From Pocillopora damicornis (lineage: Eukaryota), in NCBI RefSeq assembly GCF_003704095.1, contig NW_020845543.1, positions 310,001 to 374,000 of the forward strand: DNA of 64,000 bases. Reading direction: 5' to 3'. Below, in pieces: positions 1 through 45,384 of the stretch (the stretch's first letter is position 1; every line of letters begins with the position of its first letter). The notes beneath the pieces were generated by a model that was not told the origin of the DNA, did no database searches, and saw only the letters and a list, made by a program, of their open reading frames with translations. Made by a program: the position numbers and the translations under genes.

Positions 1-3000
1 GCAAGCTGTGAATCAATCCAGTTTATGCATCATTTTCTCATAGCACAGGGTCTATATCGCATTTATTATCACGGGAAGGTAAGATCTGTTATTAGAAGAT
101 CAACAAATGCGTTCGAACGATCGAAAAGGTACTTTTGTTAATTGAGGAAATTCTGCAAATAAACTTTGACAAGAGTGATATCTCTACAAATACATTGATT
201 TGTATGAATTCTAAACAGTTACTGGGAAAGAGGTACGAAACGATGCCGGGGTGAATTTATTTGAGCATGATATGCTTTCATGTACCCTTTCAGTTCGATT
301 TAGACTCTAATTTTGAGTTCTTTCCTTTAAATGGATCAATTTGTTTACGCAAATTAATATTTTAGGAAAGGTCTCCCGAGATCTCGCTGGCATACATAAA
401 ATCCAATTTTAATTTCCATATTTTGTCTTCAAACTAACTGAATACATCTAATGATTTTGAACTAAGTAGAATTTGGAGAATAACAACATTTCAGACGCTG
501 TGCTTCACAAAATCGTCAAGTTTTTATTTTGGAAAAAATTCCTCACAGTTTATGGCCAAAAATTCAACCTTGATCAATACAAATGTGTTTTAAACTCTTT
601 TCATGAGCATGAACTTTCACTCTGTCCCAATGGCCTAGAAATTTCATTAAAATATTCAGACAAGAATACCTCAGATAAATCCAATTGCGCCTACTGTCAT
701 TCATCATAGTTTTTTTTATGTTGCCAATTTCCGCGAGTGACGTTGTTGTGTAAACAAAGGCATACAGTTGAAGTTGATGACTTTAGCTTTCAGCCAATTA
801 TGATATAGCGTGTAGGGGATCAATTCCAGGCTCGTATAAGCGACTTTTGTATTAACTAATTGAAATTTTAACGGCATAAATTTACATGGAAAGGGATATG
901 GGACTAGAAATCTATCCAGATGTCACAAGACAGGTGAGAATTAGCTTACCACTATTTTAATTCCAACCTTAGTCTGTTGACACGAGTATTTATCGTTAAT
1001 TCTGACATACGCGAACATCGGTTAGTCGAATCGATCAGGAAAACCAGTATCTCCTGGATCTACTGCAAAGAAAAAGGTTGGTTTACCCTAAATATCAATT
1101 CAAGCTTAGTTCCCTAGCTTTCTTTTACTGATTGTGTTTGCATCGCAGGGGTCAGATTAAGAACGTTTCTCAATTTTGAAAGCGTTATACACATCTGTTC
1201 TTACTAACGTGCATTGCGGAGGTAGACGATGTATTTCTACTGCAATTAGAACTATGATAACAGACTGTAAGATGGATTTGAACTAACATACAATTTCTGC
1301 AATCACATGAACAAAACTAAGCTCTACGTTAGTTGTCTAATATATCAAACCTCCTCCTGCCATGATACATGTTTGTTCAATCAAAGTGATTGGATTCAAA
1401 TGATAAACAGAGTTGCAGCTATGAATAGAAAGTTTCAGTGTATTCGCTTCAGTGACAATATGGAATATTGCTCTGATAAAAATCGAAGACCAGAAACGTG
1501 GATCTTCTTTAATTTCTTCGACGATTTAAAAAATTGAAGTTGGCAATTTTATGCAGTGCGAACCTTGTGCTCTTCGCACAAACAAGTGAGGCACACAAAA
1601 TAGCAACAAATTTCATTTGACCTGCGGATGAAAATGACAATCGAACACAAATCCAGGTAAGTAAAATATCTCTGGGATTCATTTGCTAATAACACATATA
1701 GAGGAAATAATCACAAATGAAACCATCAAAGCGGCAACAGAGTTAGAAGCTTGTGCAAAGAATAGATGATTAGTTTAGTTTAGTTGATGTACGTGATCAA
1801 AAGGAACAAATTTTTCGGCATGGATTTGTTCAAACCTGTCATGCCTATTCTTCGTCATATTTTGTTGGTCAAATTTTCCTTAGATCAGCCTTACTAACGG
1901 CTAAACGGAAGTCGCCTATTAACAAGTCGATCTCTTCGAGTTATGATTAAAATGAATTTAATTAATATCTACAGCGGCTGCAATGTCAAGTGTAAATAAA
2001 AAATAAAAATAAAAGTGCAAAGATATATTCCTTGCTACTACTGACACTTGATATTAGTTATTTCAATTATAATTTATTTTAATCTTTAGAAAAGATTTCA
2101 ACGTGTTTTCCGGCAGAGTTAATGTTCACTGTCAGTCTCGTTGTTTACTTACTCTACTTTAGTATGTAATGTTTACCACTGTAGATCAAGGTAAGCCATG
2201 GTAAGCCAAGCCAAGCCTACTAAATTGTACGAGCCTGGAATTCACGGATGTCTTGGATGGGTAATTTTGAAAATCTTTCCTGACCTATCAAGGAATAAGA
2301 AATAATTTAATAGGTATATTCATGTCAGACATGTCAGCAGTGAATGATAAAAATTTATTATAACAATAATGCAGCCAAACGAAGGCTGACTCTTAGGTCT
2401 TCCAGTTTGCCGCTCTTACCCCGGTGTCCAATCAATGAACTCAAATCCTTGCATTGGTGATCACAAAAACATGAGGGAGCCGAAACTTCTCACGTTATTC
2501 TCTATAATAGAGTACACGAAAATTTAACTCAGGTTTTGAAAATCTGAGGTTCGAACATTCCTTGACAGGTCTGCTTTTCAGCTCTGTCACCAAAATGTTT
2601 ATCTTTATCACGAAGGAACACAGAAAAATAATTTTTTGTTTTATTGACTAGCACGTGTGTGTGGATACAAAGTGTGATGCAGCCATGAAAAAAGGTATGT
2701 GCGGATGGTCGAACGAGAAAGCCTAACATCACGACCAAACTTTATCATCTTGTTAAAATAACCGTATTTTCTCACTTATGCGCTCCGCTATAACTCTTAA
2801 AAAATAAAACAAATGTATTTTTTAGCGCCGGGATTTATGTTGTCGATATTTGATACCGTTAAAAACGTTGTTTTAAATTCATGTAAATCATCATTTATTA
2901 AAGTTGTGAATACGAGACAATATTTTGATATTTAAAAACTGTTCTATGTAATTATTATATTTCATGAACCAGAAAATGAAATGAAATGGAATTTACAATT

Positions 3001-3255
3001 CCAAGGACCCTCTCATTCTATCCAAAAAAATGAAGAGTTTTCAATGAAGTCAGCATTGATAACCACTGTTCGCGATCCAGAGGACGTATGTTGCCCCTTT
3101 GCAGCAATAAACGCTGTGGCCCCCATCATAGCTGTTTTTTGAATTTCACACAGGGCTCCACCGGTTGCATAGCATTCCCGGAGAATATACGACAATTTGA
3201 ACATTTACATACATGCTTCATTGGGATGAGCAAGGGATCACGTTCAAGTACTTCT

Positions 3256-3825
3256 ATGTATTCGAGGTTCTGGTTGGTAATTGCATTTTTGACTTATCGC
3301 ATTCGTACAAATAAAGTTAGTGGCCAGTGTCACACAGCGGAATACTCTGTGAGAGGAATGTACCTCCGTGGTCACACGTTTAAAAACGTCCAAGTGGAAT
3401 TACATGAGACGTGCTACTTCAAGTGCACGGAAGAAGTCACATGTCAGAGCTACAACTTCGTCATTGGTCTTAACATATGTGAGCTAAACAATCGTACAAA
3501 GGAAGCAAGACCAGAAGATTTTTTGCCAGATGAGATGAGATACTACATGAAGCGTCTTACTAACAGAGGTTGTTATCATGTTGATAGAGAAGTCTTAGAC
3601 ATAAGTTCAAAAAACTTTATTTACCTCTCTTGAGCTTCTGATTTCTCCACTAACTGAGCTATAGAAAGCTTATTGGAGACTTGAGGCTATACACCACGTT
3701 AGTTCGAAAGTATGGGTCTAACTAGGGTAATTTAGTATTATCAACTAAGTTGATAACGTAAATTGGCCACCGTTTCGAGTTTTAAAGCTGACGTTTCGAT
3801 CGTTAGTCTTTCGCTGAATGTTATA

Positions 3826-3862
<37 letters not shown>

Positions 3863-5677
3863 ATAACCCCCTTTATTCTTATGCCTCTTACTATCGAGTT
3901 TGAAGTCCGTTCTGTAAGTTACGGACCGGGTTTTTTCTGCTCGGATTTATGGCCCAAGCTCAACATACGTAAGATATAAATACGAGCAGAAAAAAACCAA
4001 GTTCTATAACTTATAATAGAAACCGAGAAATAAGGTTAGACATTTTTTATATCTGTAGGATCAAATGGAGAGAGAAGATTTCAATTCAAAAAAAAATTCC
4101 AATAATCTATTTTTACGCATTGCAACCCATTCTCTTGTGATCAGTTACGTCTGAGACTGAAGCTAGAGGGCTCAACAGAGATTTAGAAAAGGGACTTCGC
4201 TAAACGATGGTTCAAACGACGAGGGTCAGTCGCTAATTGGTCAGTTCGGAAAGTTTACCAGCAATCTTTCATCTACTTGCGAGCGGATATGTCGCACATT
4301 ATTCATAGATCATTAGAGATGCACAGAACTTCTTCCTTGAGAAGATGACAGTTGCAAACTATCTTTCCGAATTTGCAAATGAATGAATCCCTTCCTCGCA
4401 TGAAAGGCCTTCTACTTAGCCTAATTTTGATAGTTAGGAGGTTTGTAACCCATTCTATTGCTATCGTATAGTACCCCTGGGATCTATCGCCGAGCTTCCA
4501 GCTGAATCGTGCACAGAGGTTAGAGCAAGTGAAGGAAATGATGTGGAAAATACGAAACACTGGATATACTCTGATGAGAAAAGTTTGCCAATAGAGGCTC
4601 TTTGTGAAGGTAATCATATATTATAGTCAGTAACCACAGAAAGGTCTGATCCTAAAGAAATTCTATCACAAAGCTGACGACACGTCATTAGATTTTGGAA
4701 CTGGAAACCTATTGGTCCACTTATTTAAAAACAGCAATTTAGTCAGTTTGTCACCTTATTAGTCGACCTGTCTGTACGTTTAAAGGTCCATCGATTGAGA
4801 ACCTAAGTGTTATAGGGGTATGTAATTTGTCTATAAGTTCTAACAAGTAATTCGATGCAACTAATCGCAAATAATAGTAAATTTTTATAGACTGTCCTAA
4901 AGAGTGCTGCATTAAATATACACCATTGCCCGTCCGATTGGTGTGGAATGTTCCAGTACTGGACTACAATGGACTCACGGTAACTTTATTCAGCAAACAT
5001 CCAAGCTATATCCTTATGTCTACATTCAAACTGTTTATGATTACAAAGTTAATTATTGAAAAAAATAGTAACGCCCACTACTAATAGCCACGTGTTCATT
5101 TCCAGGGGGAGCTAGGTCCTTACCTGATGAAGACCTCAGAAACGTTGATTGTTTTAATTTAAAGTTCTTATTTTTTATCAATTTCATTATAGGTAGCTGG
5201 CAGAAGGTAAATGGTGAATATTCTGTCTGCTTTGGAGCGAAAGATAACCAGTATGGTTCCGTGACAATCCCCAAAAGTGGACGTCTCCGAGCCATGAAGC
5301 TCATCCACAAATCAGGATCGTTACGCTGCAATCGCGTAACTGGCTCATCGTTCTGGGGTTGCACTTACCGTGCATATAATGGAACACTATCGACAATTAT
5401 AACAGATGCTGATAAAAACGCCGTCCTACCTCCTGATGAAGACCTAGAAGGGTTTGATGTCTCACAATCTCACGAATGTGGCACCGAAAAACACTTTTAC
5501 AGTCTCGATGGGACCAGCCACAATTCTACTGTACTGGTTTTTCGCAACCTTTCGAATCCGTTGTCTGTGTCACGCGATCAAGAGTTGCAGATATGGTACG
5601 GGCAAGATCTGAAAGACTGTTCGGAACGTGGGAACAGTGGTAAAACTTGTGTTGATGTGTTTGCATGGTACGAGTAA
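3256..5677 (+). CDS. Secreted PAN/apple-domain protein, paralog 1 (3 exons: 3256-3568, 4472-4609, 5193-5677; 311 aa)
   Basis: Exons join through GT-AG introns in phase 1/1 (936 nt). Hydrophobic N-terminus (MYSRFWLVIAFLTY), then a PAN-type Cys pattern (GMYLRGHTFK...CYFKC...CQSYNF...CELNNRTKEARPEDF...YYMKR). Exon 2 has the PAESCxEV...HWI...ALCE motif seen at the start of fibrinogen/COLFI-like domains. Exon 3 is a Cys-rich domain ending CVDVFAWYE*. Exon lengths match the paralog at 19167-20927. An in-frame upstream ATG lies at 3226. Confidence 0.85.
3724..3879 (-). mobile_element. Penelope-like palindromic repeat, copy A (degenerate hammerhead on minus strand)
   Basis: Shares ttatcaact(c/a)agttgata, aaattggccaccgt, gctgacgtttcga and ccaccgacgcagcaccacagtttct blocks with copies at 24866, 45163 and 60011. 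Lies in intron 1 of PAN paralog 1. Confidence 0.65.
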
Positions 5678-24917: not shown

Positions 24918-27900
24918 TATAATCAACTCAGTCGATAAGGTAAATTGGCCACCGTAAAGCGTTGACAAAGGCTAATGCTCGAAACGTCAGCTTTTAAACT
25001 ATTTACGATGGCCAATTTACGTTATTGACTAAGTTGATAATACTAAATTACCCTAAACGATGATTAGCTGAATGAAAAAGTTAGACAAGTATTCAATGTG
25101 ACAAAATCAAAGTAGGGGATATTGACGACCGACGCGGGCTAAATAAAACATACTGAAAGGAACTTTTCAATTACTGACAGAGTTAAAGTCGGACAAAGGA
25201 CATTCCAAAGGCCCCTGTCTGGATTTGAAACCTAGTGATATGACCCTCAATTGTACAATGGATCCTGCAGATTATAGAACCAAATTAACATAGAATATAT
25301 TTCAACTACAATGTTTTCTCTCACGTACGTAATCGAAATTCTTGTCTCAAACGTTTCGAAGGTTGAAAACTCGTTTAAAGGAGGGTATTGATTCGTCTTA
25401 GAGCACAATTCGATTCTACATCTCCTATCTGACACACTTCTACGTGATCAACCACTATTTCGCATCTAAAATTTTCCAAAATTTCTTAGAATGCTAATCG
25501 TGTGCCAATCACTAGCAAATGTCGCGGAAATACTCTTCAAGTCTTGTTTGGATTATGCTGGAAACCGACAGTCAAAGATACAAATAAATCTCCCTGAATC
25601 TAACATACTTCGCTTTTGTCCGAAAGGGCTCATTTCTCAACCCTTTTCTCAACCCTTAACTCAACTTATTTTATGGCACCAAACACTTACAAGGTCACAC
25701 AGTATGTTCAACAACAAATGGCTTCCGCTGAAGTAAACTTAGGTAAGCTTCAGCGGGGATTCCCCTACCCATCACATCTCGTTCACTTTCGTATTTCTCT
25801 TCGAAGAATAAAATTTAATTGAAAAAATAATATTCTTCCCAATTTTTCGTCAAAATCAACGCGATTTCTTAAGTCCAACACTCAGTAACACTATAAGTTG
25901 AAGTAATCTCCTCGAGGAGGAACTGTGAAAAAAAAATAAATGGGTCTATTTATAGATGTTTGTTCCTATTATCGTCTGAGACAATCTGAAACGAAAAGTA
26001 TAAATATCATCACGCAAATCATCACGTAAATCAAGTCATTTGGATCTTAAGCCCGAGGAGGACGAACGGAAAGATCGAAGGACTTCACGTCGTATTCACG
26101 CTAAGACATTCTCTCGCAGAAACAGACCAACACTGCTGAAACATTACATTTATCATTGTCAATTTAGAGGAAACGGAAGAAAAAAGAACTGGTGATAAAT
26201 ATTGCACATGGATGGCTGCAAAATTTTCAGCTGCGTGTTTAATCCAATTTAGATAGTCGTGACCACTACGCCGCTCTCTTGCGTTTGAAATGAAAGGATA
26301 TCATCAAATAATAATTTGTGTTTTAACCTTCTGCATGGTCAAAGTCACCAGCCAAAAAAGTGCGGGATCAAAACACTGTGATGCATTTCGCCACTGCGAC
26401 TGGAAGAAGGCACCCACTCTATTCGTGAAAGTTCCAACACAAAGGGTTGTATGTTCGATGAAGAGCAGCACGGGTGAACCATGTACCATGGACATAAACC
26501 AGATTTTAAAATTACTACCGGCCAGCAGCGATGTCGTGCTGTACTTTGTCACCGACTGTTTAACTCCGACGCAAATTTCTTTTAACAATTCTTTAAACGT
26601 CACCAAGAAAAACATCATATCCTACATGCAGATCATGAGACATTGCCGCATTTCAGTAGAGGCCCTATCTGTCTGGGGGCAAGCCACAGATTTTCGGGTG
26701 TTCTACGCAATGGCGAACACAACTTTAATGGAAACGAACGAAACATTAAAAACTAGCTCACGTCGAGCACTGAAAAACATTGGTTCTCTTGCTATTGACA
26801 ACTCTAACCCGCGAGGCATCCCCAGAATTTTTAGGAAATACGTCTGGCCAAAGATGGCCGAAGTCTCACTTTCCAATTTACAGCTTTCCTCAATCCCTGT
26901 AAACCTAAATAACATCATGCCGCTACTTCAGTCTCTAGAGGTTTCTCACAACAATTTTTCAAGACCACCGCCATTTCCTTGGTGCAACACCACACTTGAA
27001 CTGCCGAGAGGACTGGAGAGAACGCCAACTGCAAATCACCACTATCAATTCGGCACCATCGTTAATCCGAAGTTGTACCGACGATTCTTCGATTTGTCGT
27101 ATAACAACATCGTAGATTTGGCGACCCACGAATTTAAAGGACTTCTAAATGCTTTAAATCTAGAGGGAAATGGACTAAAAGCAGTTGGACCAAAGTGTTT
27201 CCTCGGTTTGAATGGAATACAAGTAATAAACCTAAGAAATAACAAATTGAATGATTTGCCTTCACAATTATTCCAAGGACTCCGAAGTCTCCTGAAATTA
27301 CGACTAGATCACAACAATATCTCGTCTTTACCGATCCAACTTTTTAAAAACCTCACAAACATCAAAAGAATTGACTTAGGAAGTAACAAACTGAGCTTCG
27401 TTCAAAATGAATTGTTCACCAACTTGAAATCTTGTGAAATATTGAATTTAAATGATAATCAAATCACTCTTGTGGATGATGACGCTTTTCCCACCGATTC
27501 AAGTTCTTTGCAAAAGATTAACCTCCAAAACAACAAAATAACGCGGATTCCTTCATCTTTACTCCTGCAACGACATGCTACAGAAATAAATCTGTCATTC
27601 AATGAATTGAATTTTCAAGATCTTAGAAACCTCTTCAAGCAAATAGACTTAAACACGTTTTTGTACCACCATCGTGATACGGCAAGTTCAGTCCGGTTTA
27701 GACTAAAGGAAAGCTTCAATCAAATCAGCTTTGCCTATAATAAATTTTCGAAAATAAACGTCAAGACACTCAACAAAACAGAGATAGGTCTGTTTGAGTT
27801 TCTCCTGCAAATTTATACAATCGACATGACTGGGAACCTCCTGAAGTGTGATTGCGATATCTTGGTTTTGACTCGCTGGCTTCGATCATTGATGCTGAAG

Positions 27901-30900
27901 CATCCGCGTATTCAAAATGTGCACTTTGAAACTTGGAAATGCACGGCTCCTGATGAAGTTAAGGATAAACCTATACTATCTGTACACGAAGACGAGTTCA
28001 AATGCCAGAGAAATCTCAAAAACTGTCCTCAAAGATGTTTGTGTTATGTACGAGCCATGGATGAAGCTGTGGTCATCGACTGCAAAGGAAGAAACCTTAC
28101 TGAGCTTCCTTCCAAGGTTCCAAGAGGTAATCTAGTTCTTCATGCAGAGAACAATAACATCCGGGAGATTCTTCCACATTCCTATTTAGAAAACGTTTCA
28201 GCACTTTATCTCACTGAAAACGATATCCATGTCGTAAACGAGTCCATAGTAAGAAAGTTAACGCAAACTAAAATTCTTTTCATTGATTCGAATAAGCTGA
28301 CCAGTTTACCGCGGAACATTGAAGACGTCAATTTCACCATTCTCGCGATAAACCACAATTTCTTCAAGTGCGACTGTACAACAAAATGGATGAAGTACTG
28401 GTTGCTAAGAGAGTCAAGTAAAATTCAAAACATGGAAAACGTTTTGTGCAACTCCGAGAATGCTCAAGGGAAAGCAATTTACAGCCTACCAGATGATGAG
28501 TTTGTTTGTCAAATTTCTGCCAACGATGATACAAATACGCCGTCCACAACAATGGGTACTGAGTATAAAGTCATCGCTTTGACTCTTGCAGGTGCGCTGG
28601 TTTTGACTTTTATCGTTTTCTTCGTGATTTTCAAGTACCGCGGAGAAATGAAAGTGTTCATGTTCACTCACTTCAACTGGCACCCATTTGATCGCATAGA
28701 CGACTCCGACCCAAGTAAACTATACGATGCGTTTGTGTCTTACAATGGCAATGACCACCGTTGGGTGTCAAACACTTTATGGGACAGACTTGAAAATCAC
28801 GACCCCCCCTACAAACTGTGTGTCCATGACCGCGACTTCCAAGTGGGTAAAACAATACAAGAAAATATTTTCAAGAGCGTCGACCAAAGCAAGCGAATGA
28901 TCATGGTGTTATCCAATAACTTCTTAAAAAGCGAGTGGTGCTTGCTGGAATTCCGCGCCGCACATCGGAAAGTTCTGGAGGAACGTACTAATTATCTAAT
29001 CATCATTTTGCTAGATGACGTGAACATGGACGAGCTTGATGAAGAAATGAAATTATACATGCGCACTAACACGTATCTCAGTGTCAACAACAAGTGGTTC
29101 TGGCAGAGACTGTACTACGCTATGCCTCACATAACAGTCAGGCAAATAAGAGCAAGAAATCTCTCGAATACTCCCTCTAATGTGACATCGCATTCTGTGG
29201 CTCAAAGCGTGTTCACTAATGGGGCATACTCTGTATCTTAACCTTCCCACAAGTGTTTGACATTCAACTCCACCCACAAATTGTTACTTGTTAATAGTCT
29301 AATTGGCAGCTGTTCTTAAGGATATCACGCAACATACCAAGCAAAAGAAAGAGTCACGAAAAATTCCAAAGAACGGCTACGAACGGCCATTAAAATAATT
29401 AAACAGCTCCTTGAAGAGGAGGTATAAAACGGAGGAAAAATTTAAAGCAATAAAGAAATGCTTCAGTTGTCCTTGTTACTCACCAGAATCAGAAAGTAAT
29501 CTTATTCGCGAAACGAAACCAAATTAACTATTCAGACCTTTCAACAATTTACCATACGTAGTGTTCAAGTTTTAAAACATTAATATTGCGTAAATCAATG
29601 TTTATAAAAAGATGAATTTCATATAATATCTTTCCCTCAACTGATTCGAAATTCAAACGACTTCTTGATTATTGTTGGGGTCTTTATGTTGGCGTTTTCT
29701 TGAAAATTACATGTCAAGAGTTTAGCGTATGAAACCAAAAGGTTTGGTTTAATCACCCGAGTGAAGTTTGTTCTATTTTCAAACCATTCCCCTACAGTAA
29801 TGTACTGTTGGTAGTTTATTTTAAGAAACATTGTGAATTTGTAAGTCGTGCACTGTATCTAACTATATCAGCGACAGTTAGAAAAAACGTTTTCTAAGTA
29901 ACAACAGATAAACACAGTAGATTAATTTTGTATGCGTATCACTTACGTTTGCGGAACAATGCAGACTACTTATAAAAATAAACAAAAGCGTAAGAAATTA
30001 TCAAAAAAACTTGACTTATTGACTGAGTGGTAGGGTCGGTCGGGAATAAGTTTGGCCGTCGCTCATTTTTTTTTCCCTTTCTTCTTTTAGCTCGCGAGGC
30101 AGTATAGCTTCTGTACGGCCCTTGCACACCATGGCGCACGGCCCTCATACGGGTATTTCTGTACAATTTTTTGATAACGGTTCAATTTAGTTCATAAATA
30201 CCTTTAATGACAAAGCAAGCTTGGTCAAGAAAGTATTTTTCATATCAAAGAACTGCTAATTACCTCACGCCCTGACAACAGATTCCTCATCAGACCCAGC
30301 GTTTTCATCGTCACTTGTGTGTCTGGATCATCAAGAAGGCTGCAAAATGAAAACAAAAAGCTTATATTTTTTTATAGCCTACTTGCAGTGGTGTGAATTG
30401 AGAAAAAACAAGCTGTACATACATACATTGAAAAACGAAGTCACTAAATTGCACGAGAAGAAAAACCTTGGTGTGATGGCGATCAGATCTACTGAGGTTT
30501 AAAGCAGAAAGAGGCACTCTCTAGTTTGTAGAGCTATATTTTATTGCTTTTCTGAAAGAAAGCGAATCTGATACGGGTCGAAAATTGTTCTACTGCTCCA
30601 ACTATTACACATGACTTCTTTTAGACCTTTTCACAAGTTACCAACCTGAACAGCTGCTCGGGTCCCAACACTTCAAGGATTTTATTTTTAGTTCCTTCAT
30701 CTGCTTGGTAAGCCATATTCTACGAAGTGTAACAAGAGAAAAAACACCTTGTTCATCGCTCGAGTTAATCACATGGCGGGATATTAGCGAGTTCTCTTAT
30801 GAACTTAAACTGCGTTGTACGTTGGACTGCACTCCCAATAAGGAGAAAAGAATAGTGATAATTCATAAATCTTACCATTAGAGCCCAAACCCCGTTCAAT

Positions 30901-33900
30901 CGCAGTGCAGTTTCTGAGCGCCTGGTTAAATTTGACAACAAGTTGACGGCTCCTGCTTCTAATATGGGCTGAAATAGAAAGTGAAAATACAGTTACTATT
31001 TCAACATTTTACTTCTTGAGTGGCACTGTAAGGGTGCTTGTTAAATGCCAGTTCACATTCACGATGACCTTGCTCACAATCCACATATGAGCAAGACTCT
31101 CTCCACCCATGAAGATAAAGGGGAACCAAGAACTAACAGGTACACTGAAAAAAATCTTAGGAGCGAGGGGGGAGAGGGGGTAAAATTTAACTGTAATAGA
31201 TTTGCACCCCTCATAGGAGGAATAGCAAGACTCCCAGTGGCGTCATGCCACAGGAACCATGATAAGTTCTAGCATAGTGGGCCATTTGGTTCGTACGACA
31301 TCTCAACGTTTGGTGTGTCAAGTCATGGCCTTGATTTGATTGACTGATTTATTTCGCAAGAAAATATTTACAATAATTATACGTGAATAATATATGTTTT
31401 TTTTCGTATTCCTGGCAAGGAAGCTCATTTGGAAACCATGGGGCTCTTGACAATGAGCTCCCCACTCACATAGATCAAAAATAAAGTTATCATGCGTGGA
31501 CTACTATTAACAAAACATAATTAAGATAAAAAGGAACGAAAAATGACTGTTCAAAAAGAAAAATACACAAAAACACAAACACAATCACACAAAAAGCACG
31601 CGTGCAGACAGACTAAAGACAAAAAAACAGCAAATTATATTTACTTGAAGAGAATCAGGAAAGGAGCAATACTCGTAGATTTAAAACGAGAGACGGTAGG
31701 GGTACTTTGTATATTGTGGTTAAAAGAATTAAGTACTTTTGGTGCCTGAAATTTTATGGCAAACCGTCTTATATTAATTCGAGCATAAAATAACCAACAG
31801 ATATCAGAGTTTGTAGTATTGTTCGAATAAATTTGATTCAAATTGTAAATAAAAATATTTCTATAACTACATTAAGAAGAATGGCTATTTTATATAGAAA
31901 CACAAACTTGGCAAATTGAAATAAATATCAGGAAAGTTTAATATTTGTAAGTTCTTAAACAAAGAAAAAAGGATAAGTATGAACATGGAATGGCTTTCGT
32001 TGAAATTATTCTACTAATTTCCTCCTGAAATATGACAATGCACTTTGAGTTTGTGGGATAAAGTACCCAGACAGTGATGGTTCGATGAACGTGTATTGAC
32101 TAGGCTATAACTTCCATATTTACCTCTTTACTGGGAGAGAATTCCAGCAACAGATTACAGAGTGCAGAGGAGGCCACAGTCATCATGTTATCATTGGCGT
32201 CCTGAAGTAATTTCATAATGGGCTTCCAAACCGCCGTGTCCTGGAAACTAGTTCTTAACTGTTGCACAGAACGCGACAGGCTGTGGAGACACTTCACTGC
32301 AGCTAACTTGACATTTGTGTTGGGATCCTCTAGACCGGACACCACGTGATCCATGGTGCATTCGATATCAATAATCTGCAGAGCAATTCATGTCGTTCAA
32401 TCTAATACACTTTCAAACATTAACAAACGGTTACAAGGAAGAAAATAAGAGAGTCGGCTCCCGAATCAAAAACATATCTTGAAGAACCTTATCTTGCAGA
32501 AGAGCTTAAATCTTGTTCACTCCCAAGATCTTGTCAGTAATTCTCCTTATTGTCTGCCATACAATAATTGTGACATTGGTTAAAAGAATTTAGTATTGGA
32601 TCACCTGATAAAACCCTATTTGATATTTTTGTCTATCCTCATTCCTTGTCAGCTTGATTTTGTATTGATTTAATAAGGGGAAATTCTGTCTTGATCACTC
32701 AAGGGAGTTAGGCGGCCAAAAGAACTTTTGTCACCTTTTTCCTGATGTCTTCATCGTTTGCGCCAACAGAGGCAAGAGCTTTGAATGCACTCTATAAAAA
32801 ATGAATAAATAGTTACATAAAAATAATAACAATAATAACAAATACAGTCGAACCCGTATTTAGCGGCACGGTATTAAGCGGTCAGTTGTCAAAGTCCCGA
32901 AGTGGAATTTTCTGCAACTTTAAACTGTAATTTTCACCTTAATTAGGCGGTCACCTCTTTCAAGCGGTAGCGGTAACCCTCTGCAAGTGAGGCTCGCCGC
33001 TAGTGGAAAAGGTTCTCGTGGGCAGAGACTAGAGATGTACGCGTCCATCAGTCGCTTACAAGAAATTGAGTGGCAAACTCGAGGTTTGAAAAGGAAGTAT
33101 GCGTACGTGAAGACAAATTTAACACTTAAATATGGCTCTGTGATCATTGCAGGGAAAACTTTGAATGTACTTTACCCTGGATTAAACTTCTGAAACCTTA
33201 TGCAACCCTACACTGTTTCAAGAAGAATAACAACCTGAGAAAGGCTGCCCTCCCCATTTCTCCCCCACTCTTCCCCTGCCCGTATGTGGTTATACCCACC
33301 TCTCTCATGAGAGCGTAAGAGCTGTCGTCCAAGTCACTTTTGACCAAGAAGCCAGTTAGCGTTTTAATCAAGTGATCAGAAATGGCTGCCGTCCTCTGCA
33401 GCTCTGTGTCTTCTTCAATGAGGAATGCTAAAAGAATTGGCGAATCAAATAGTGGACTCTTAAAGGCAGTTTCATACACTAACCTGTATCTGTACCAAGA
33501 ACTATTGTTTGAATGGTCCAGTGGACCAACATAAATAGCAATTTTTTAATATAACAATTCTCAATTGAGTGTCGAAAGTAATCAAGGATTAAATTGGTTT
33601 AACTTTTCTACGCCCTCTGATTGATTCAGGAAACTCGCGCTATCCTCTCAACTAATCAGTTTCAAAACCAAAACCAATCGCGGCCTCAACACACGCGTTT
33701 TCCCGCGCTTTGAGCAGTATGCTTTCCATTATCAATTCTCATTGGCTCGTTGTGATATTTTCCTTTCCTCTGATTGGCTGTTGAATTGCACTCTAACCCG
33801 CTAACAGGACTGTGTTTTCTTTTAAGTATTAAAGTAATTGGGTTTCAACCCCAATTTTCACACCAGTTCTCCTAGAATCAAAACTCTTTGAGGCAATTGT

Positions 33901-36900
33901 AGTGTGAGTGTTGAATAACAAGTTGATTGAGGAAAAAAATGTCCTGGATCGAGCCTGAAAGAGGGTCATCTTTATGTGTTCTTAGGTAGAACACTAATTT
34001 ATAACAGCGCATTTCTCTCTCTCTCTCTCATGATGACTATAAAAACTGTCAGCCGAGGGAAACCTGGCAACCTACATTATCCTATTGATAAATCTACATC
34101 AATTCTGTCTGGAAATGTTCCTAGTAACTGCATGCTACATACCCTAGGATGAACTAAGGCACTGTATGTCATTTGCCTCTCAAACAGAAACACAAGGTTG
34201 AACTTTTCATTGTGATCAATGAGTTAAATGCAAAATTTCAATATAAACCATTACCTCTACCCTTACAAAAAAAAAAAAACGATTTCATCAAAACTAACCT
34301 AATGTCTCTGCTGCCTCAGCTCTGACGGTGAGGTTTTTGTCCAATTTACACATTCTGACCACTGTGGCAAGAACCTTAAAAAGTAATCACTCACTTGTAT
34401 TGTGTTGACATCATATTTACCAATTATAAATGGAGGCAAAAATAATTCAACCCACTGAATTGCAGAAAGGAGTCAGAACTGCCATCACACCTTCTTGATA
34501 GTACATACGTATTTCTTGTACATTTATTTGTGTTCAGTGTTTTAAAAACTCACGGTCATGTAGTTTATGCTCTGTATGTACAGTATAAATCATTGTACAC
34601 CATGATCTATCAGAATGTTGGAAGCAGAGACATTTGAATTGAATCTAATCCCTTCAAGAGAGACACAAGAACTCCATAAGCTACACAATTTCAATAACAG
34701 ACACCCTTTCCTTCCAAATCAACCAAGACTCTAAAAAATAACTTGACAAGGAACAAGAAATATTGGATATTTTTCCAAGGCTACCCAAGTGAGACAAAAC
34801 ACTGTGACAGGTGCACATACAATGTACTGTAGGCAAGAAAACAAACATCCTTTCATCCCTCTCAATGAGAGTCCCCTCCCCTCCCCTCCCTTCAAACAAT
34901 ATACTACAGGGCCCAGTTGTTTAAAGGCTGATTGGCACTAACCCAGACTTAAATTTCATCCAGGTTTCTATATTTCTTTGTTCAAAAGCCATTTAGGAAG
35001 AATATTCCCTATTCTTTTAGACCATCCAATGACCAAATTGCAAGCAAAAATGATTTGAATTGAATTTTCTTTTAAAGCTTTCAGACCTGAAATCAAATTT
35101 CACCCTAACCCTGGGTTATCTTAACCCAGCTTTGAACAACCCAGGCTAGGAATCGAAGTGAGAAGATAAGGCTGAAAACTGAAGTTAGGTTCAATGAGTA
35201 ACAACATGACTGCAAGTAGGTCTATACACACCTTGATCAGTAGCGCATGATGTTCTGCTGCTGGTACTGCCCCTGCCCTGTGCATGTTTGTCAAACTGCA
35301 ATGTACAGTGTACATTAATTTCTTAAATTAGTCAGAGAGACAGAAACTCAAATAATTCATTCAAACAGCATAACTGCACCATGTACGTACAGTTAAAGGA
35401 TACCGTTAAGAACATGTTGATAGAAAGACAGATTGAATTTCAAGGACCCAGAAAGGCAAAAGGGATTACATGGACAGATAGATTGACTGACAAGCAGACA
35501 AACAGATAAACAGCCAGAAAGAAAGATGGATTGGACCAGCAAAAATAAAAGAATTTAGGAAAGGCACATAAGCACGCAGTTTGGTAGACAGACAAGCAGG
35601 TGGGTAGAGAGATAGACAGATGGATGAAAAGATGGAAAGAGAGACTGGTGGACACAAAGAAACAAAGACCACATCAAAAACAGATGGAAGGAAGGAAGGA
35701 GTAAAAGACACTACAAACAGACAGTTGGATGATCAGATAGATACCCACCACTTTGCAGCTCCAAGCTGAATCTCATCGGGTCTGTCTCTTGACAGCAGCT
35801 TAGTAAATATTTGAACCAGCTGCTCACCTTGATGTGTTGCTTTGGGTTTGCAAAAAATAGCCAAAAAATTGAATTAAGAACAAAAAATGTGTTATGCTTT
35901 TACACTCTTGCAGTACTGTACAGTGATAAAGGCTGTTTGTAGCAAAAGTTGAACCTGAAAGAATTTCTCCTTAATATATCATTAAAATATCGAGCAGACA
36001 AGTGATGAAAATAAAGAAAAATATCAATTAGGGAATTATACATGTATGTATGTTGATCCAATATCAAATTCTCCAAACTAACATTACAAGAACTGTATGG
36101 CAGACAGAAAGGAGAATTAGTAATGAGATCTCATGAGTTAAAGGCCAGTTAAGTGGCACCCTATTTTAAGCAGTTACCCTGTACTACAGAAAGCAGAAAG
36201 TTTCCCCTTAATCACTGTAATTTTCACCTCTATTAGGCAGCCACCTCTATTAAATGGTCATGGTCACCCTTAATTAAGTCCCAACTGCCTATTTTTATTG
36301 TCTTCTGCTTGTATTGAATGGTCACTGAAAGAATAACTATTCGGCGATGAGTAATTTTTAATCCTTGTTCCTCTCTCAAAATTAAAGTACCAGTAGTATT
36401 TTGGAGAAAGATTCTGTACAATAAATGCTCAATTATGGCATAAAGCGGCATTGTTTACCACTTTTTATAACACCTCTAATCTGTGGAACTCCTGTTAAGC
36501 GGTCAACCTGTATTAAGCAGTGGCCCTACCATTCCCTGTGGGTGACTGCTTAATACAGGTTTGACAGTAATACACCTTTAAATAGTACATAAAAAAATTA
36601 GGTTGTTAATATCAATTTTCTGGTCATTACCTGACTTCATAGCAATTGACACAGCCCCATTTTGAAATGACATAGATGCATAGCACTGAAGTGCTGGCTG
36701 TTGTATCTTGGGAATATCACAGACCAAAAGTGGCAGTAAGGCTGTGACAGCTCCCATATTACATAACAAAGCCTGATGTGCTGGACCCTAAAAGTAAAAT
36801 GTAATTGAATGTTAACAAGAGATGAAATGTCCTCCACAGAAAATGTACCTGACAAAATGCAATTTTTACTTTCAATTAAAACTCAAGCTCCTAATTTACC

Positions 36901-41526: not shown

Positions 41527-41737
41527 TTGACCCTTTAATTCCCGAGTCTCATTATTAATTCTCCTTAATGTCTACCATACAGTTCTTGTGATGTTAGTTT
41601 GCAGAATTTAGTATTGGATCAACTTTTAATCCCGTAGCTGATATCTTTCTTTATTCTCATCACTTGTCTGCTTGATATTGTATTGATATTGTAAAGAGAA
41701 ATTCTGTCTTGGTCACTCGTGGGAGTTGAAGGGTTGA
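41527..41737. mobile_element. Full-length piggyBac-type MITE with TIRs and 4-bp flanks
   Basis: TIRs CCCTTTAATTCCC (41531-41543) and GGGAGTTGAAGGG (41721-41733), each flanked by TTGA. A related copy at ~42186-42368 ends in gggttaa. Confidence 0.75.
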
Positions 41738-43435: not shown

Positions 43436-44992
43436 TTAAACTTCATCCTCATTAAGAAGCATATTTGGAATTCCATTTTTGATAGGGAACTTTCTCCCTG
43501 ATTCGGGGCAGACCAGTGATCCTTCTTGAACTTCCACCTGTACCAAAAATAATGTTAGTACATTTTCAAAAATGTTGGTTTGAATTTTCATCTAGTTTTG
43601 TTTATTTTTTAGAGTCAGGAATTTATATGCTTATATCCAATGCTTCCACAGAGTCTGACATGCTAATTATGGTTGGACCTGTATTAAGCAGTCACTGGGA
43701 ATAGTGGAGCACCTGCTTAATACAGGTTGACCACTTATTAAAGGTTTCCTGGAATAGGGTTAACCATAATAAAAAATCTCCATTTTATGCCATAATTGGT
43801 CACTTAATATACAGTTCATTCAACACCTTAATAAAAAATGCATTGACCTCTTGTTAATAAATAGCAACAACAAAATGGTGGCACAGTAAAAAAAAATGAG
43901 CAATAACAGCAGAATTACTGTACACAGTATACTGTTATCAAGCAGTTGGACCCCCAAGTCATTATTAACTAGCAAATGACTTGCATGAAGTTCATGCAGA
44001 ATATTTGTCTCAACAGTCCTAAGAAGAGAAATCATCTGCTTTGCATTGGAGACATTTCAACTCAAAGTAATAACACTGATTTCAGGAGAAAAACATTAAA
44101 TTAATTTTAGTTAAGAGATAATTCCCAGCTTTATTTGAGTGACTGTTCAAAACAGGTGAATACAACACAAATAGGCTTCTGGGGTTCACACCATGTGACC
44201 ACTCAATGAAGGTGAAAATTACAGAGTTTATGGCAAAAACAGTTTGGGACTATGACAAGTCACCATTTAATACTGGGTGACCAGTTAACACAGGTTAACC
44301 TTTATCACGGTACCCAATGTTATCTTTCATAAAAATTCCATACTTGAATATATGTGTGGATATAAAATACAAAAAATATGTACAATCACTTGTAATTTGT
44401 TTCAAAACTACATACCTCGAGCAGAACATGATGTGCTTTCTTTAAGAACTCTTCATCTTTTTCATAGTCTGGGATCAATTCATCAGGTAAACCCCCAGAC
44501 CGTCCCACCTTAAAACGAATGTGAAAAATAGATTAAGTCAGTTGTATAGATCTTTTCTTGAGTTCAAACCTTAAACTCTTAGGAGTGACTAGTAAGTATT
44601 CGTTTAAGTATTCTCACTTGCTGCGCTGCTTGTACGAGAGCACCCCAGTCCACTTTCGGAATCATTCGCGAGATGAATTCAGGGTTGAAATCCACCTCAT
44701 TAACAACAACATTCACGACCTGAAGGAAAAAAGGAGAGGATATAACACACTAAAATAAATTTTATAAATGAATTACGGCTTCAAAGTAAACGAATTTAAG
44801 GCTATTAACACTGTAGATCAAATAAAGCGACTCCAGAATGTATGCACGTGCACGTCGAAGATGTCCATTTTTGTTTCAATTATTTGACAACTACTTCGTT
44901 AAAAGTTAATCAACTACCTCTATAGCCAAAGGATATCCATTCTTTACGCCTTTGACGTGAGATGTAAGCATGTTATGCGTTAAAAGGCGCAT
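43436..44992 (-). CDS. TRMT112: Multifunctional methyltransferase activator subunit TRM112 (4 exons: 44992-44918, 44719-44618, 44508-44416, 43537-43436; 123 aa)
   Basis: Spliced product (all introns phase 0, GT-AG): [25 protein letters not shown]|[34 protein letters not shown]|[31 protein letters not shown]|[33 protein letters not shown]. Clear Trm112 signature; absent from the ORF track because the exons are short. Confidence 0.97.
43670..44300. mobile_element. Tc1/mariner-type MITE in TRMT112 intron 3
   Basis: Imperfect TIRs ggttggacctgtattaagcagtcac ... gtgaccagttaacacaggttaacc. Related to 36150-36570. Confidence 0.55.
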
Positions 44993-45162
44993 TTTTGGCT
45001 ATTTTATCACGTAAATAAGGGGAGGTTTGCCACAGTTTCCACCGCGGAACACCCGCTGAACTACTCTGTGGGCTCATGCATGCAGATGAGGCTGAAGGAA
45101 CACCACCGATTTGGGCGCGTATTTCACATGCAGTAGTTTGGCTGTGATGTTCACAACTGAGT

Positions 45163-45384
45163 AAAGGGGGTAAGTTTCTAAGGAAACCGTGGTGCTGTGT
45201 CGGTGAGAGAGCATGACAGGGTAATTTGGTATTATCAACTCAGTTGATATCGTAAATTGGCCACCGTAAAGAGTTTAAAAGCTGACGTTTCGAGCCCTTT
45301 GTCATTCACTCTGACGAAAGCTAAACGCTCGAAACGTCAGCTTTCAAACTCTTTATGGTGGCCAATTCACGTTATCATCTCAGT
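45163..45384 (+). mobile_element. Penelope-like palindromic repeat, copy C (best-preserved hammerhead core)
   Basis: Long hairpin: aattggccaccgtaaagagtttaaaagctgacgtttcgagc pairs with gctcgaaacgtcagctttcaaactctttatggtggccaatt. Located ~170 bp upstream of the TRMT112 ATG. Confidence 0.75.
45308..45341 (+). ncRNA. Minimal type I hammerhead ribozyme motif (imperfect copy)
   Basis: act-CTGACGA-a-agc taaac gct-c-GAA-AC-GT-C-agc. It has both catalytic boxes (CUGANGA 45311-45317; GAAA 45331-45334), a short stem II, a palindromic loopless stem III (ACGT) and a GUC cleavage triplet ending at 45338. The G-C pair at the base of stem II is lost in this copy. Confidence 0.6.

What the first reader, a model, noticed from the sequence alone, without database searches (positions are those of the whole stretch)
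45163..45384. Dispersed palindromic repeat family encoding a minimal hammerhead ribozyme
Seen: four copies (3724-3879, 24866-25054, 45163-45384, 60011-60110) give the consensus GCT-CTGACGA-A-GGGC-TAAC-GCTC-GAA-AC-GT-C/AGC. This has stem I (GCT/AGC), the CUGANGA box, stem II (GGGC/GCTC), GAAA, a loopless palindromic stem III (ACGT) and a GUC cleavage site. In this copy an antisense half-motif sits next to the sense motif, forming a long hairpin. Established: minimal type I hammerheads with palindromic stem III, thought to act as dimers, and inverted terminal arrangements are typical of Penelope-like retroelements. Inference: an abundant non-autonomous ribozyme-bearing retroelement family (4 copies in 64 kb) inserting in introns and near promoters. 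Each copy here has at least one damaging change, so activity is predicted for the consensus and not necessarily for these copies.
Basis: partly seen in the sequence, partly recalled or inferred. Interest (0 to 1): 0.7.

Follow-up and report, generated by a model that had tools for sequence, protein, structure and literature searches.

The report
Penelope retrotransposon ends carrying known hammerhead
These four repeats are decayed end-pieces of a protein-coding Penelope-type jumping gene whose tiny hammerhead-ribozyme motif is already published letter for letter from another coral; none of the four is intact, and the very short copies likely mark where copying of the element's RNA runs out.

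Summary
The 34-nt motif is printed identically for Acropora digitifera, inside a Penelope-like element (PLE), in the supplement of PMC4209133. In this genome the 28-nt core has 612 exact matches. It lies about 96 nt after the stop codon of an RT + GIY-YIG ORF, and 25 of 30 GIY-YIG loci carry it. Short copies share subfamily haplotypes with ORF-linked copies, so they are best read as 5'-truncated ends of an autonomous PLE, not a separate non-autonomous family. The head-to-head arms, one-sided tail and ~13-bp target duplications are known PLE features. None of the four window copies passes a hammerhead descriptor. One residual point: 55 of 90 sampled copies begin at the 5' foot of the ribozyme and only 4 of 151 arms begin at the cut site, so the templates were mostly uncleaved. 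The scan reported similar cases in other genomes.

The parts
45162..45303 (-). Copy 3, tail-bearing arm: element +2 to +150, with 6 nt of hammerhead stem II/loop deleted
   Evidence: alignment to a genomic copy (L007)
45162..45219 (-). Copy 3, one-sided tail (+93 to +150)
   Evidence: a tail on only one arm in all 61 inverted copies sampled
45304..45384 (+). Copy 3, tail-less arm: element -6 to +74, joined head-to-head to the other arm (one of the two commonest junction types)
45308..45341 (+). Damaged minimal hammerhead: CTGACGA 45311-45317, GAAA 45331-45334, predicted cut after 45338; G10.1-C11.1 pair lost
44918..44992 (-). First coding exon of a TRMT112-like host gene; copy 3 lies 170 bp upstream of its ATG
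   Evidence: translation; next exon matches human TRM112-like protein, E 3e-9
3724..3813 (-). Copy 1, tail-less arm (+5 to +94), CUGANGA box broken
3819..3877 (+). Copy 1, tail only (+94 to +152), opposite orientation; possible decayed 13-bp target duplication 3711-3723 / 3880-3892 (10 of 13 identical)
24867..24962 (-). Copy 2, tail-bearing arm (about +41 to +151, 18-nt internal deletion)
24963..25054 (+). Copy 2, tail-less arm (+2 to +94), core damaged
60012..60110 (+). Copy 4, single tail-less arm (-6 to +92), G5>A and A15.1>G; 14-bp target duplication 59992-60005 / 60110-60123 (13 of 14 identical)

Best explanation
The four repeats are decayed, 5'-truncated 3' ends (terminal repeat with minimal hammerhead motif, plus tail) of a protein-coding Penelope-like retrotransposon, likely of the Neptune type, and were likely made when the element's enzyme nicked both DNA strands and copied its mostly uncleaved RNA from two internal start sites. 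Shown: the motif sits 96 nt after the RT + GIY-YIG ORF; inverted arms end near +92-99 and tailed arms near +146-156; most 5' ends lie at -10 to +10; head-to-head pairs carry ~13-bp target duplications. Inferred: each nicked strand primes its own cDNA (one from the tail end, one from about +92-99), both run off near -6 (probably the RNA's 5' end, from a promoter in the terminal repeat), and the two ends are joined back to back. The hammerhead is predicted to be off as a monomer and to need a dimer and/or the element's protein. It is probably not needed for insertion. The window copies are inert.
For: Identical motif published in an Acropora digitifera PLE terminal repeat (PMC4209133 supplement). 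25 of 30 GIY-YIG loci have the core downstream on the same strand, 24 of them at 183-203 nt. RVT_1 E 3.4e-7 and GIY-YIG E 3e-4 on one strand of one locus. A CX4CX2C motif lies between RT and EN. 91 of 138 short arms have a haplotype also seen in 54 ORF-linked arms, and both classes hold young and old types. 61 of 90 tail-selected copies have an inverted arm; 51 of those 61 end at +89 to +102 and none reaches the tail. Target duplications of 8 bp or more in 31 of 42 copies against 1.9% of 1722 mismatched pairs. Mirror junction classes 9 vs 8 of 43. Rare variants are mostly not shared between arms, 5 vs 104. Exact counts drop from 612 (core) to 118 just upstream. The same step appears in contigs of four independent runs. 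In vitro precedent: Anolis Poseidon cuts and extends both strands from two internal start sites that bound the tail, and its hammerhead is protein-assisted and dispensable for insertion (PMC11167929).
Against: No intact full-length element or terminal-repeat-to-ORF tandem junction was found in G000, so the transcript is not defined. The GIY-YIG score (21.4 bits) is below Pfam's cut-off of 22.6, and a second copy scored below both cut-offs. 5 of 30 GIY-YIG loci lack the motif. 47 of 138 short arms have haplotypes not seen among ORF-linked arms (decay or unsampled masters). No transcription start was measured: only assembled contigs were available. A short RNA made by short copies would give the same boundary. 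Clade assignment rests on a motif, not a tree.
Confidence: 0.88

Rival explanations
1. The ~150-nt unit is an independent non-autonomous element (SINE-like), transcribed from its own short copies and mobilised in trans by the PLE enzyme.
For: Sharp 5' boundary: 30 of 90 copies start at -6 to -4. Short copies outnumber those that extend upstream about five-fold.
Against: Same young and old haplotypes in short and ORF-linked arms. The unit is simply the ORF's 3' end. 5' ends also trail upstream to -35, -70, -178 and beyond -329. No head-to-tail arrays of the unit were seen in the 90 copies.
Confidence: 0.1
2. Same element, but inverted copies arise by fold-back self-priming of a single strand (as proposed in PMC3846280), or the fixed 5' boundary is an endonuclease cut at ATT/AAT rather than an RNA end.
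For: The commonest junctions form a small hairpin at -6/+2. The two arms share a haplotype in 23 of 34 pairs, chance 0.11. The boundary falls on ATT/AAT, and the Anolis enzyme prefers ATT in its own terminal repeat.
Against: Fold-back of one cDNA predicts that the tailed arm is always the complete one, but 8 of 17 asymmetric junctions have it trimmed. 6 of 43 have both arms complete, with spacer bases between them.
Confidence: 0.25
3. Hammerhead self-cleavage makes the RNA ends or circles that serve as templates (model of PMC4209133).
For: The motif has no second allele while flanks show nine dimorphic sites, which suggests selection on master copies. 4 of 151 arms start at +27 to +31.
Against: 114 of 151 arms span the cut site. 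The few +29 starts fall in an A-run/AGCT/T-run palindrome that can give microhomology joins. The perfect motif folds into a non-hammerhead hairpin (-12.3 kcal/mol, 90% of the ensemble) rather than the stem I + II fold (-5.6).
Confidence: 0.12

Closest known systems
Minimal hammerheads (min-HHR) in PLE terminal repeats, Acropora digitifera entry (Cervera & De la Pena 2014, PMC4209133; read: main text parts 1-2 of 4, supplement passages and part 2 of 3)
   Same: The 34-nt motif is identical; extra nucleotide between A9 and G10.1; palindromic 15.2/16.2; lies in the terminal repeat of a PLE; mostly solo truncated copies; opposite-strand pairs already noted in Schistosoma.
   Different: Different genome; flanks differ slightly. 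In the parts read, this coral motif was not assayed and copy boundaries were not mapped.
EN+ PLE insertion layout: inverted 5'-truncated copy, one-sided tail, target duplication (PMC8557442, passages and section 10; PMC3846280, passages)
   Same: Head-to-head arms, tail on one arm, target duplications, C-terminal GIY-YIG, cysteine linker as described for Neptune/Nematis.
   Different: Tail is about 55-60 nt rather than 30-40. Most insertions are only terminal-repeat stubs with a sharp boundary at the ribozyme's 5' foot.
Poseidon of Anolis carolinensis (PAc; Frangieh et al. 2024, PMC11167929; read parts 1-2 of 4)
   Same: Two preferred 3' ends bounding the tail; hammerhead apparently not cleaved in templates.
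   Different: In PAc the ORF starts inside the hammerhead and the tail is coding. Here the ORF's 5' region begins with different sequence and no intact junction was found. The cysteine linker points to another clade.
Metazoan non-LTR retrozymes (PMC7229834, search listing only; bioRxiv 10.64898/2026.07.22.740005, passages; its supplements are closed)
   Same: Non-coding, hammerhead-bearing, PLE-related repeats; known from corals.
   Different: Retrozymes are head-to-tail arrays. These copies are solo or head-to-head and continuous with an ORF.

Membership tests
Minimal type I hammerhead (min-HHR) | CUGANGA, unpaired nucleotide, G10.1-C11.1 stem II, GAAA, palindromic N-N, UH, stem I | tested here: met
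   Family majority; 20 of 52 sampled arms and 3 of 14 unselected insertions pass; 0 of 4 window copies pass
Minimal type I hammerhead (min-HHR) | Stem covariation | tested here: inconclusive
   No second allele in the motif within this family, changes mostly CpG decay; covariation across species is published
Minimal type I hammerhead (min-HHR) | Self-cleavage after C17 as dimer or with protein | not testable with these tools
   Folding predicts a competing hairpin in monomer and dimer
Rfam hammerhead families | Covariance-model match | tested here: not met
   No hammerhead hit in the window at E<=5; only the damaged window copies were scanned
EN+ Penelope-like element | RT followed by C-terminal GIY-YIG in the element that carries the repeat | tested here: met
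   (GIY-YIG below the curated cut-off, but the motif and its C/C/H/H residues are visible in the translations)
EN+ Penelope-like element | Inverted 5'-truncated copy and one-sided tail | tested here: met
   61 of 90 inverted, none of the 61 with a tail on the second arm
EN+ Penelope-like element | Target-site duplication | tested here: met
   31 of 42, median 11.5 bp, control 1.9%
EN+ Penelope-like element | Partial tandem (terminal repeat upstream of a full ORF) | tested here: inconclusive
   No intact junction in G000; 11 nt of tail-end sequence precedes the body start in contigs of other runs
Neptune/Nematis clade | CX2-5CxxC linker between RT and EN | tested here: met
   CX4CX2C; definition from PMC8557442
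Neptune/Nematis clade | RT phylogeny | not tested
   No reference set held
Non-LTR retrozyme / independent non-autonomous element | Head-to-tail monomers or a lineage separate from ORF-bearing copies | tested here: not met

The most novel reading that the evidence does not exclude
The thousands of stubs are a genomic record of the PLE reaction. A transcript starting about 6 nt before the hammerhead is copied twice, once from each nicked target strand, and the two cDNAs are joined at the ribozyme's foot. The palindromic hammerhead serves to pair two template RNAs in a dimeric enzyme complex rather than to cut them.
Probability: 0.3. Interest if true: 0.55.

Novelty: already known. Interest (0 to 1): 0.2.

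Why it matters
As a ribozyme discovery it does not: the same letters and the same PLE context are in print. Its value is as a clean, high-copy test case for an open question, what PLE hammerheads do. Copy boundaries suggest that integration uses uncleaved RNA and two priming events, and they predict an RNA start at about -6 that one 5' RACE experiment could test.

Tried and rejected
Rfam scan: no hammerhead; the weak MIR6135 hit (35 bits against a cut-off of 99) reflects the inverted arms. Splice acceptor at the 5' boundary, as in D. virilis Penelope where the intron ends at helix I: rejected, there is no AG there in the ORF-linked copies. Reverse-transcriptase stalling at the ribozyme hairpin as the cause of the boundary: it would be expected at the 3' side (about +30), where few ends lie (inference). 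Later recombination between arms as the cause of mirror junctions: disfavoured, rare variants are mostly unshared. Search for an intact tandem junction or full ORF in G000: none. RNA-library contigs hold the repeat, but contigs cannot show starts, strand or level, so this is not used as evidence of expression. No target duplication was found by eye for copies 2 and 3. Pfam did not recognise the single TRMT112 exons; the PDB search did. Lunse et al. (PMC5785218) is not held; I saw only its title in a reference list, so whether it assayed this coral motif is open. A search for 'Penelope' + 'twin priming' + 'hammerhead' returned 0 papers; searches showed no listing about a fixed boundary at the ribozyme, but subscription papers and Repbase were not searchable.

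Full report
Numbering: C3 of the hammerhead core is +1; the predicted cut is after +28.

Observation. The four copies are real and related. The window is G000:C2178:310001-374000 of a 234-Mb assembly. The organism is likely a stony coral: the motif is identical to one from Acropora and some runs holding it are labelled coral metagenome. The 28-nt core has 612 exact matches (306 per strand) and the reversed control 0. In 397 kb of DNA not chosen for the repeat there were 14 insertions, roughly 8,000 if extrapolated; 3 of the 14 pass a hammerhead descriptor and no window copy does. One of those stretches included a GIY-YIG locus I already knew of. Rfam finds no hammerhead in the window.

It is in print. 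Supplementary Fig. S3 of Cervera & De la Pena 2014 (PMC4209133) gives the same stems, boxes and loop for Acropora digitifera, starred as lying in the terminal repeat of a recognisable Penelope-like element. The paper describes the extra nucleotide after A9, the palindromic stem III, dispersed truncated copies, opposite-strand pairs and low, dimer-dependent activity in vitro for a Schistosoma motif.

Link to the ORF. Two of the first 30 core loci carried GIY-YIG remnants upstream. A search with that peptide gave 150 scored matches. Of the best 30 loci, 25 have the core downstream on the same strand, 24 of them at 183-203 nt and one across an assembly gap; 5 lack it. The ORF stops 96 nt before +1. 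One locus holds RVT_1 (E 3.4e-7) and GIY-YIG (E 3e-4, just under the curated cut-off) on one strand; a second 432-aa open frame matches both more weakly. A CX4CX2C motif between RT and EN fits the Neptune/Nematis linker; no tree was built. N-terminal pieces were found, but no intact full-length element.

Anatomy of the copies. The tail 25-mer has 839 exact matches. I analysed 90 of the first 100 listed; two were skipped because they were already held as ORF-linked loci and the last eight were not fetched. The sample is biased to young copies. Tailed arms start at -10 to +10 in 55 of 90 (30 at -6 to -4), further upstream than -14 in 6, and at +85 or later in 15, some of these owing to gaps or deletions. 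61 of 90 have an inverted arm (51 directly adjacent); 51 of the 61 end at +89 to +102 and none reaches the tail. Of 42 head-to-head copies whose ends could be placed, 31 have a target duplication of 8 bp or more (median 11.5) against 1.9% of 1722 mismatched pairs. This layout is the known PLE signature (PMC8557442; PMC3846280). The 5' boundary is genome-wide: a 25-mer just upstream of the core has only 118 matches. In contigs of four runs, summed depth jumps at the same place, with unrelated loose ends.

Not a separate family. At eight dimorphic sites, 54 ORF-linked arms (34 young, 12 old, 8 intermediate) and 138 short arms (78, 49, 11) show the same types, and 91 of 138 short arms match an ORF-linked haplotype exactly. 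A short self-transcribing element is not excluded, but nothing here requires one.

How it likely works. Shown elsewhere: the Anolis Poseidon protein cuts and extends both strands and starts reverse transcription at two internal sites that bound the tail, and its hammerhead needs the protein and is dispensable for insertion (PMC11167929). In D. virilis Penelope the start site lies in the terminal repeat. Inferred here: two nicks about 13 bp apart each prime a cDNA, one from the tail end and one from about +92-99. Both run off near -6 and are joined back to back. The junctions come in mirror classes: tailed arm complete and other trimmed in 9, the reverse in 8, both complete in 6, of 43. Simple fold-back of one cDNA does not predict this. 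Arms share a haplotype in 23 of 34 pairs (chance 0.11) but rarely share rare variants (5 vs 104), so later homogenisation is unlikely. 114 of 151 arms span the cut site and 4 start at +27 to +31, so templates were mostly uncleaved. The perfect motif prefers a non-hammerhead hairpin (-12.3 kcal/mol, 90% of the ensemble) over the stem I + II fold (-5.6), and the predicted dimer is also not the active form. The motif nevertheless shows no second allele while its flanks have nine dimorphic sites (majority 0.91 vs 0.88; 20 of 52 arms intact), which weakly suggests selection on master copies. Whether -6 is a transcription start, an endonuclease cut or the start of a short RNA is not resolved.

The window copies. 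Copy 3 is a decayed head-to-head pair (tailed arm 45162-45303 on the minus strand, tail-less arm 45304-45384 on the plus strand), 170 bp upstream of the ATG of a TRMT112-like gene. Copy 1 lies after a PAN-domain exon and has no counterpart in the paralogous intron, though that intron aligns poorly. Copy 2 lies between two minus-strand exon-like frames (one with a HEAT match) and 1.2 kb upstream of an LRR-TIR ORF. Copy 4 is a single arm with a 14-bp duplication. No insertion preference was tested.

Verdict. Real and correctly recognised as a PLE-type minimal hammerhead, but already known. It is better described as the truncated end of an autonomous PLE. Earlier notes of this scan reach similar readings in other genomes; I saw them after forming mine, and they are not independent support. 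Interest 0.2.

Noticed in passing
L221:1502, L223, L225/L230; contigs: The 5' start of the ORF-bearing body is preceded by 11 nt identical to the end of the tail, then by 12 nt that are the exact reverse complement of 3' UTR -59 to -48 (predicted duplex -27 kcal/mol). Possibly a long-range helix enclosing the ribozyme, or a relic of a template switch.
   Followed up: partly
element +46 to +92 (window 25005-25054, 60062-60110): A weak hairpin ends exactly at the tail-less 3' end; candidate protein-binding or start signal (z only -0.7 for the young type).
   Followed up: partly
window 45162-45384: A -83 kcal/mol hairpin sits 170 bp upstream of the TRMT112-like start codon and could fall in its promoter or 5' UTR.
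   Followed up: no
window 26263-29241 (+): Intronless 992-aa LRR + TIR (Toll-like receptor type) ORF nested on the opposite strand between exons of an armadillo/HEAT-repeat gene (ARMC8-like by recall).
   Followed up: partly
window 920-5677 and 16605-20927: Tandem duplicate of a gene with a PAN-domain exon and an exon with no Pfam match, about 15.5 kb apart.
   Followed up: no
window 32516-32980, 35950-36540, 41547-41727, 43693-43737; 18556-18867 and 21253-21679: Other dispersed repeat families, some with inverted arms; not examined.
   Followed up: no
L023:1370-1500: A 15-nt piece of the ribozyme's antisense strand is repeated many times in tandem at an inversion junction, which suggests slippage during joining.
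   Followed up: no
L051 / L052 (G000:C325): Two ORF-linked ends about 10 kb apart in opposite orientation share private variants; possibly one insertion split by a later event.
   Followed up: no
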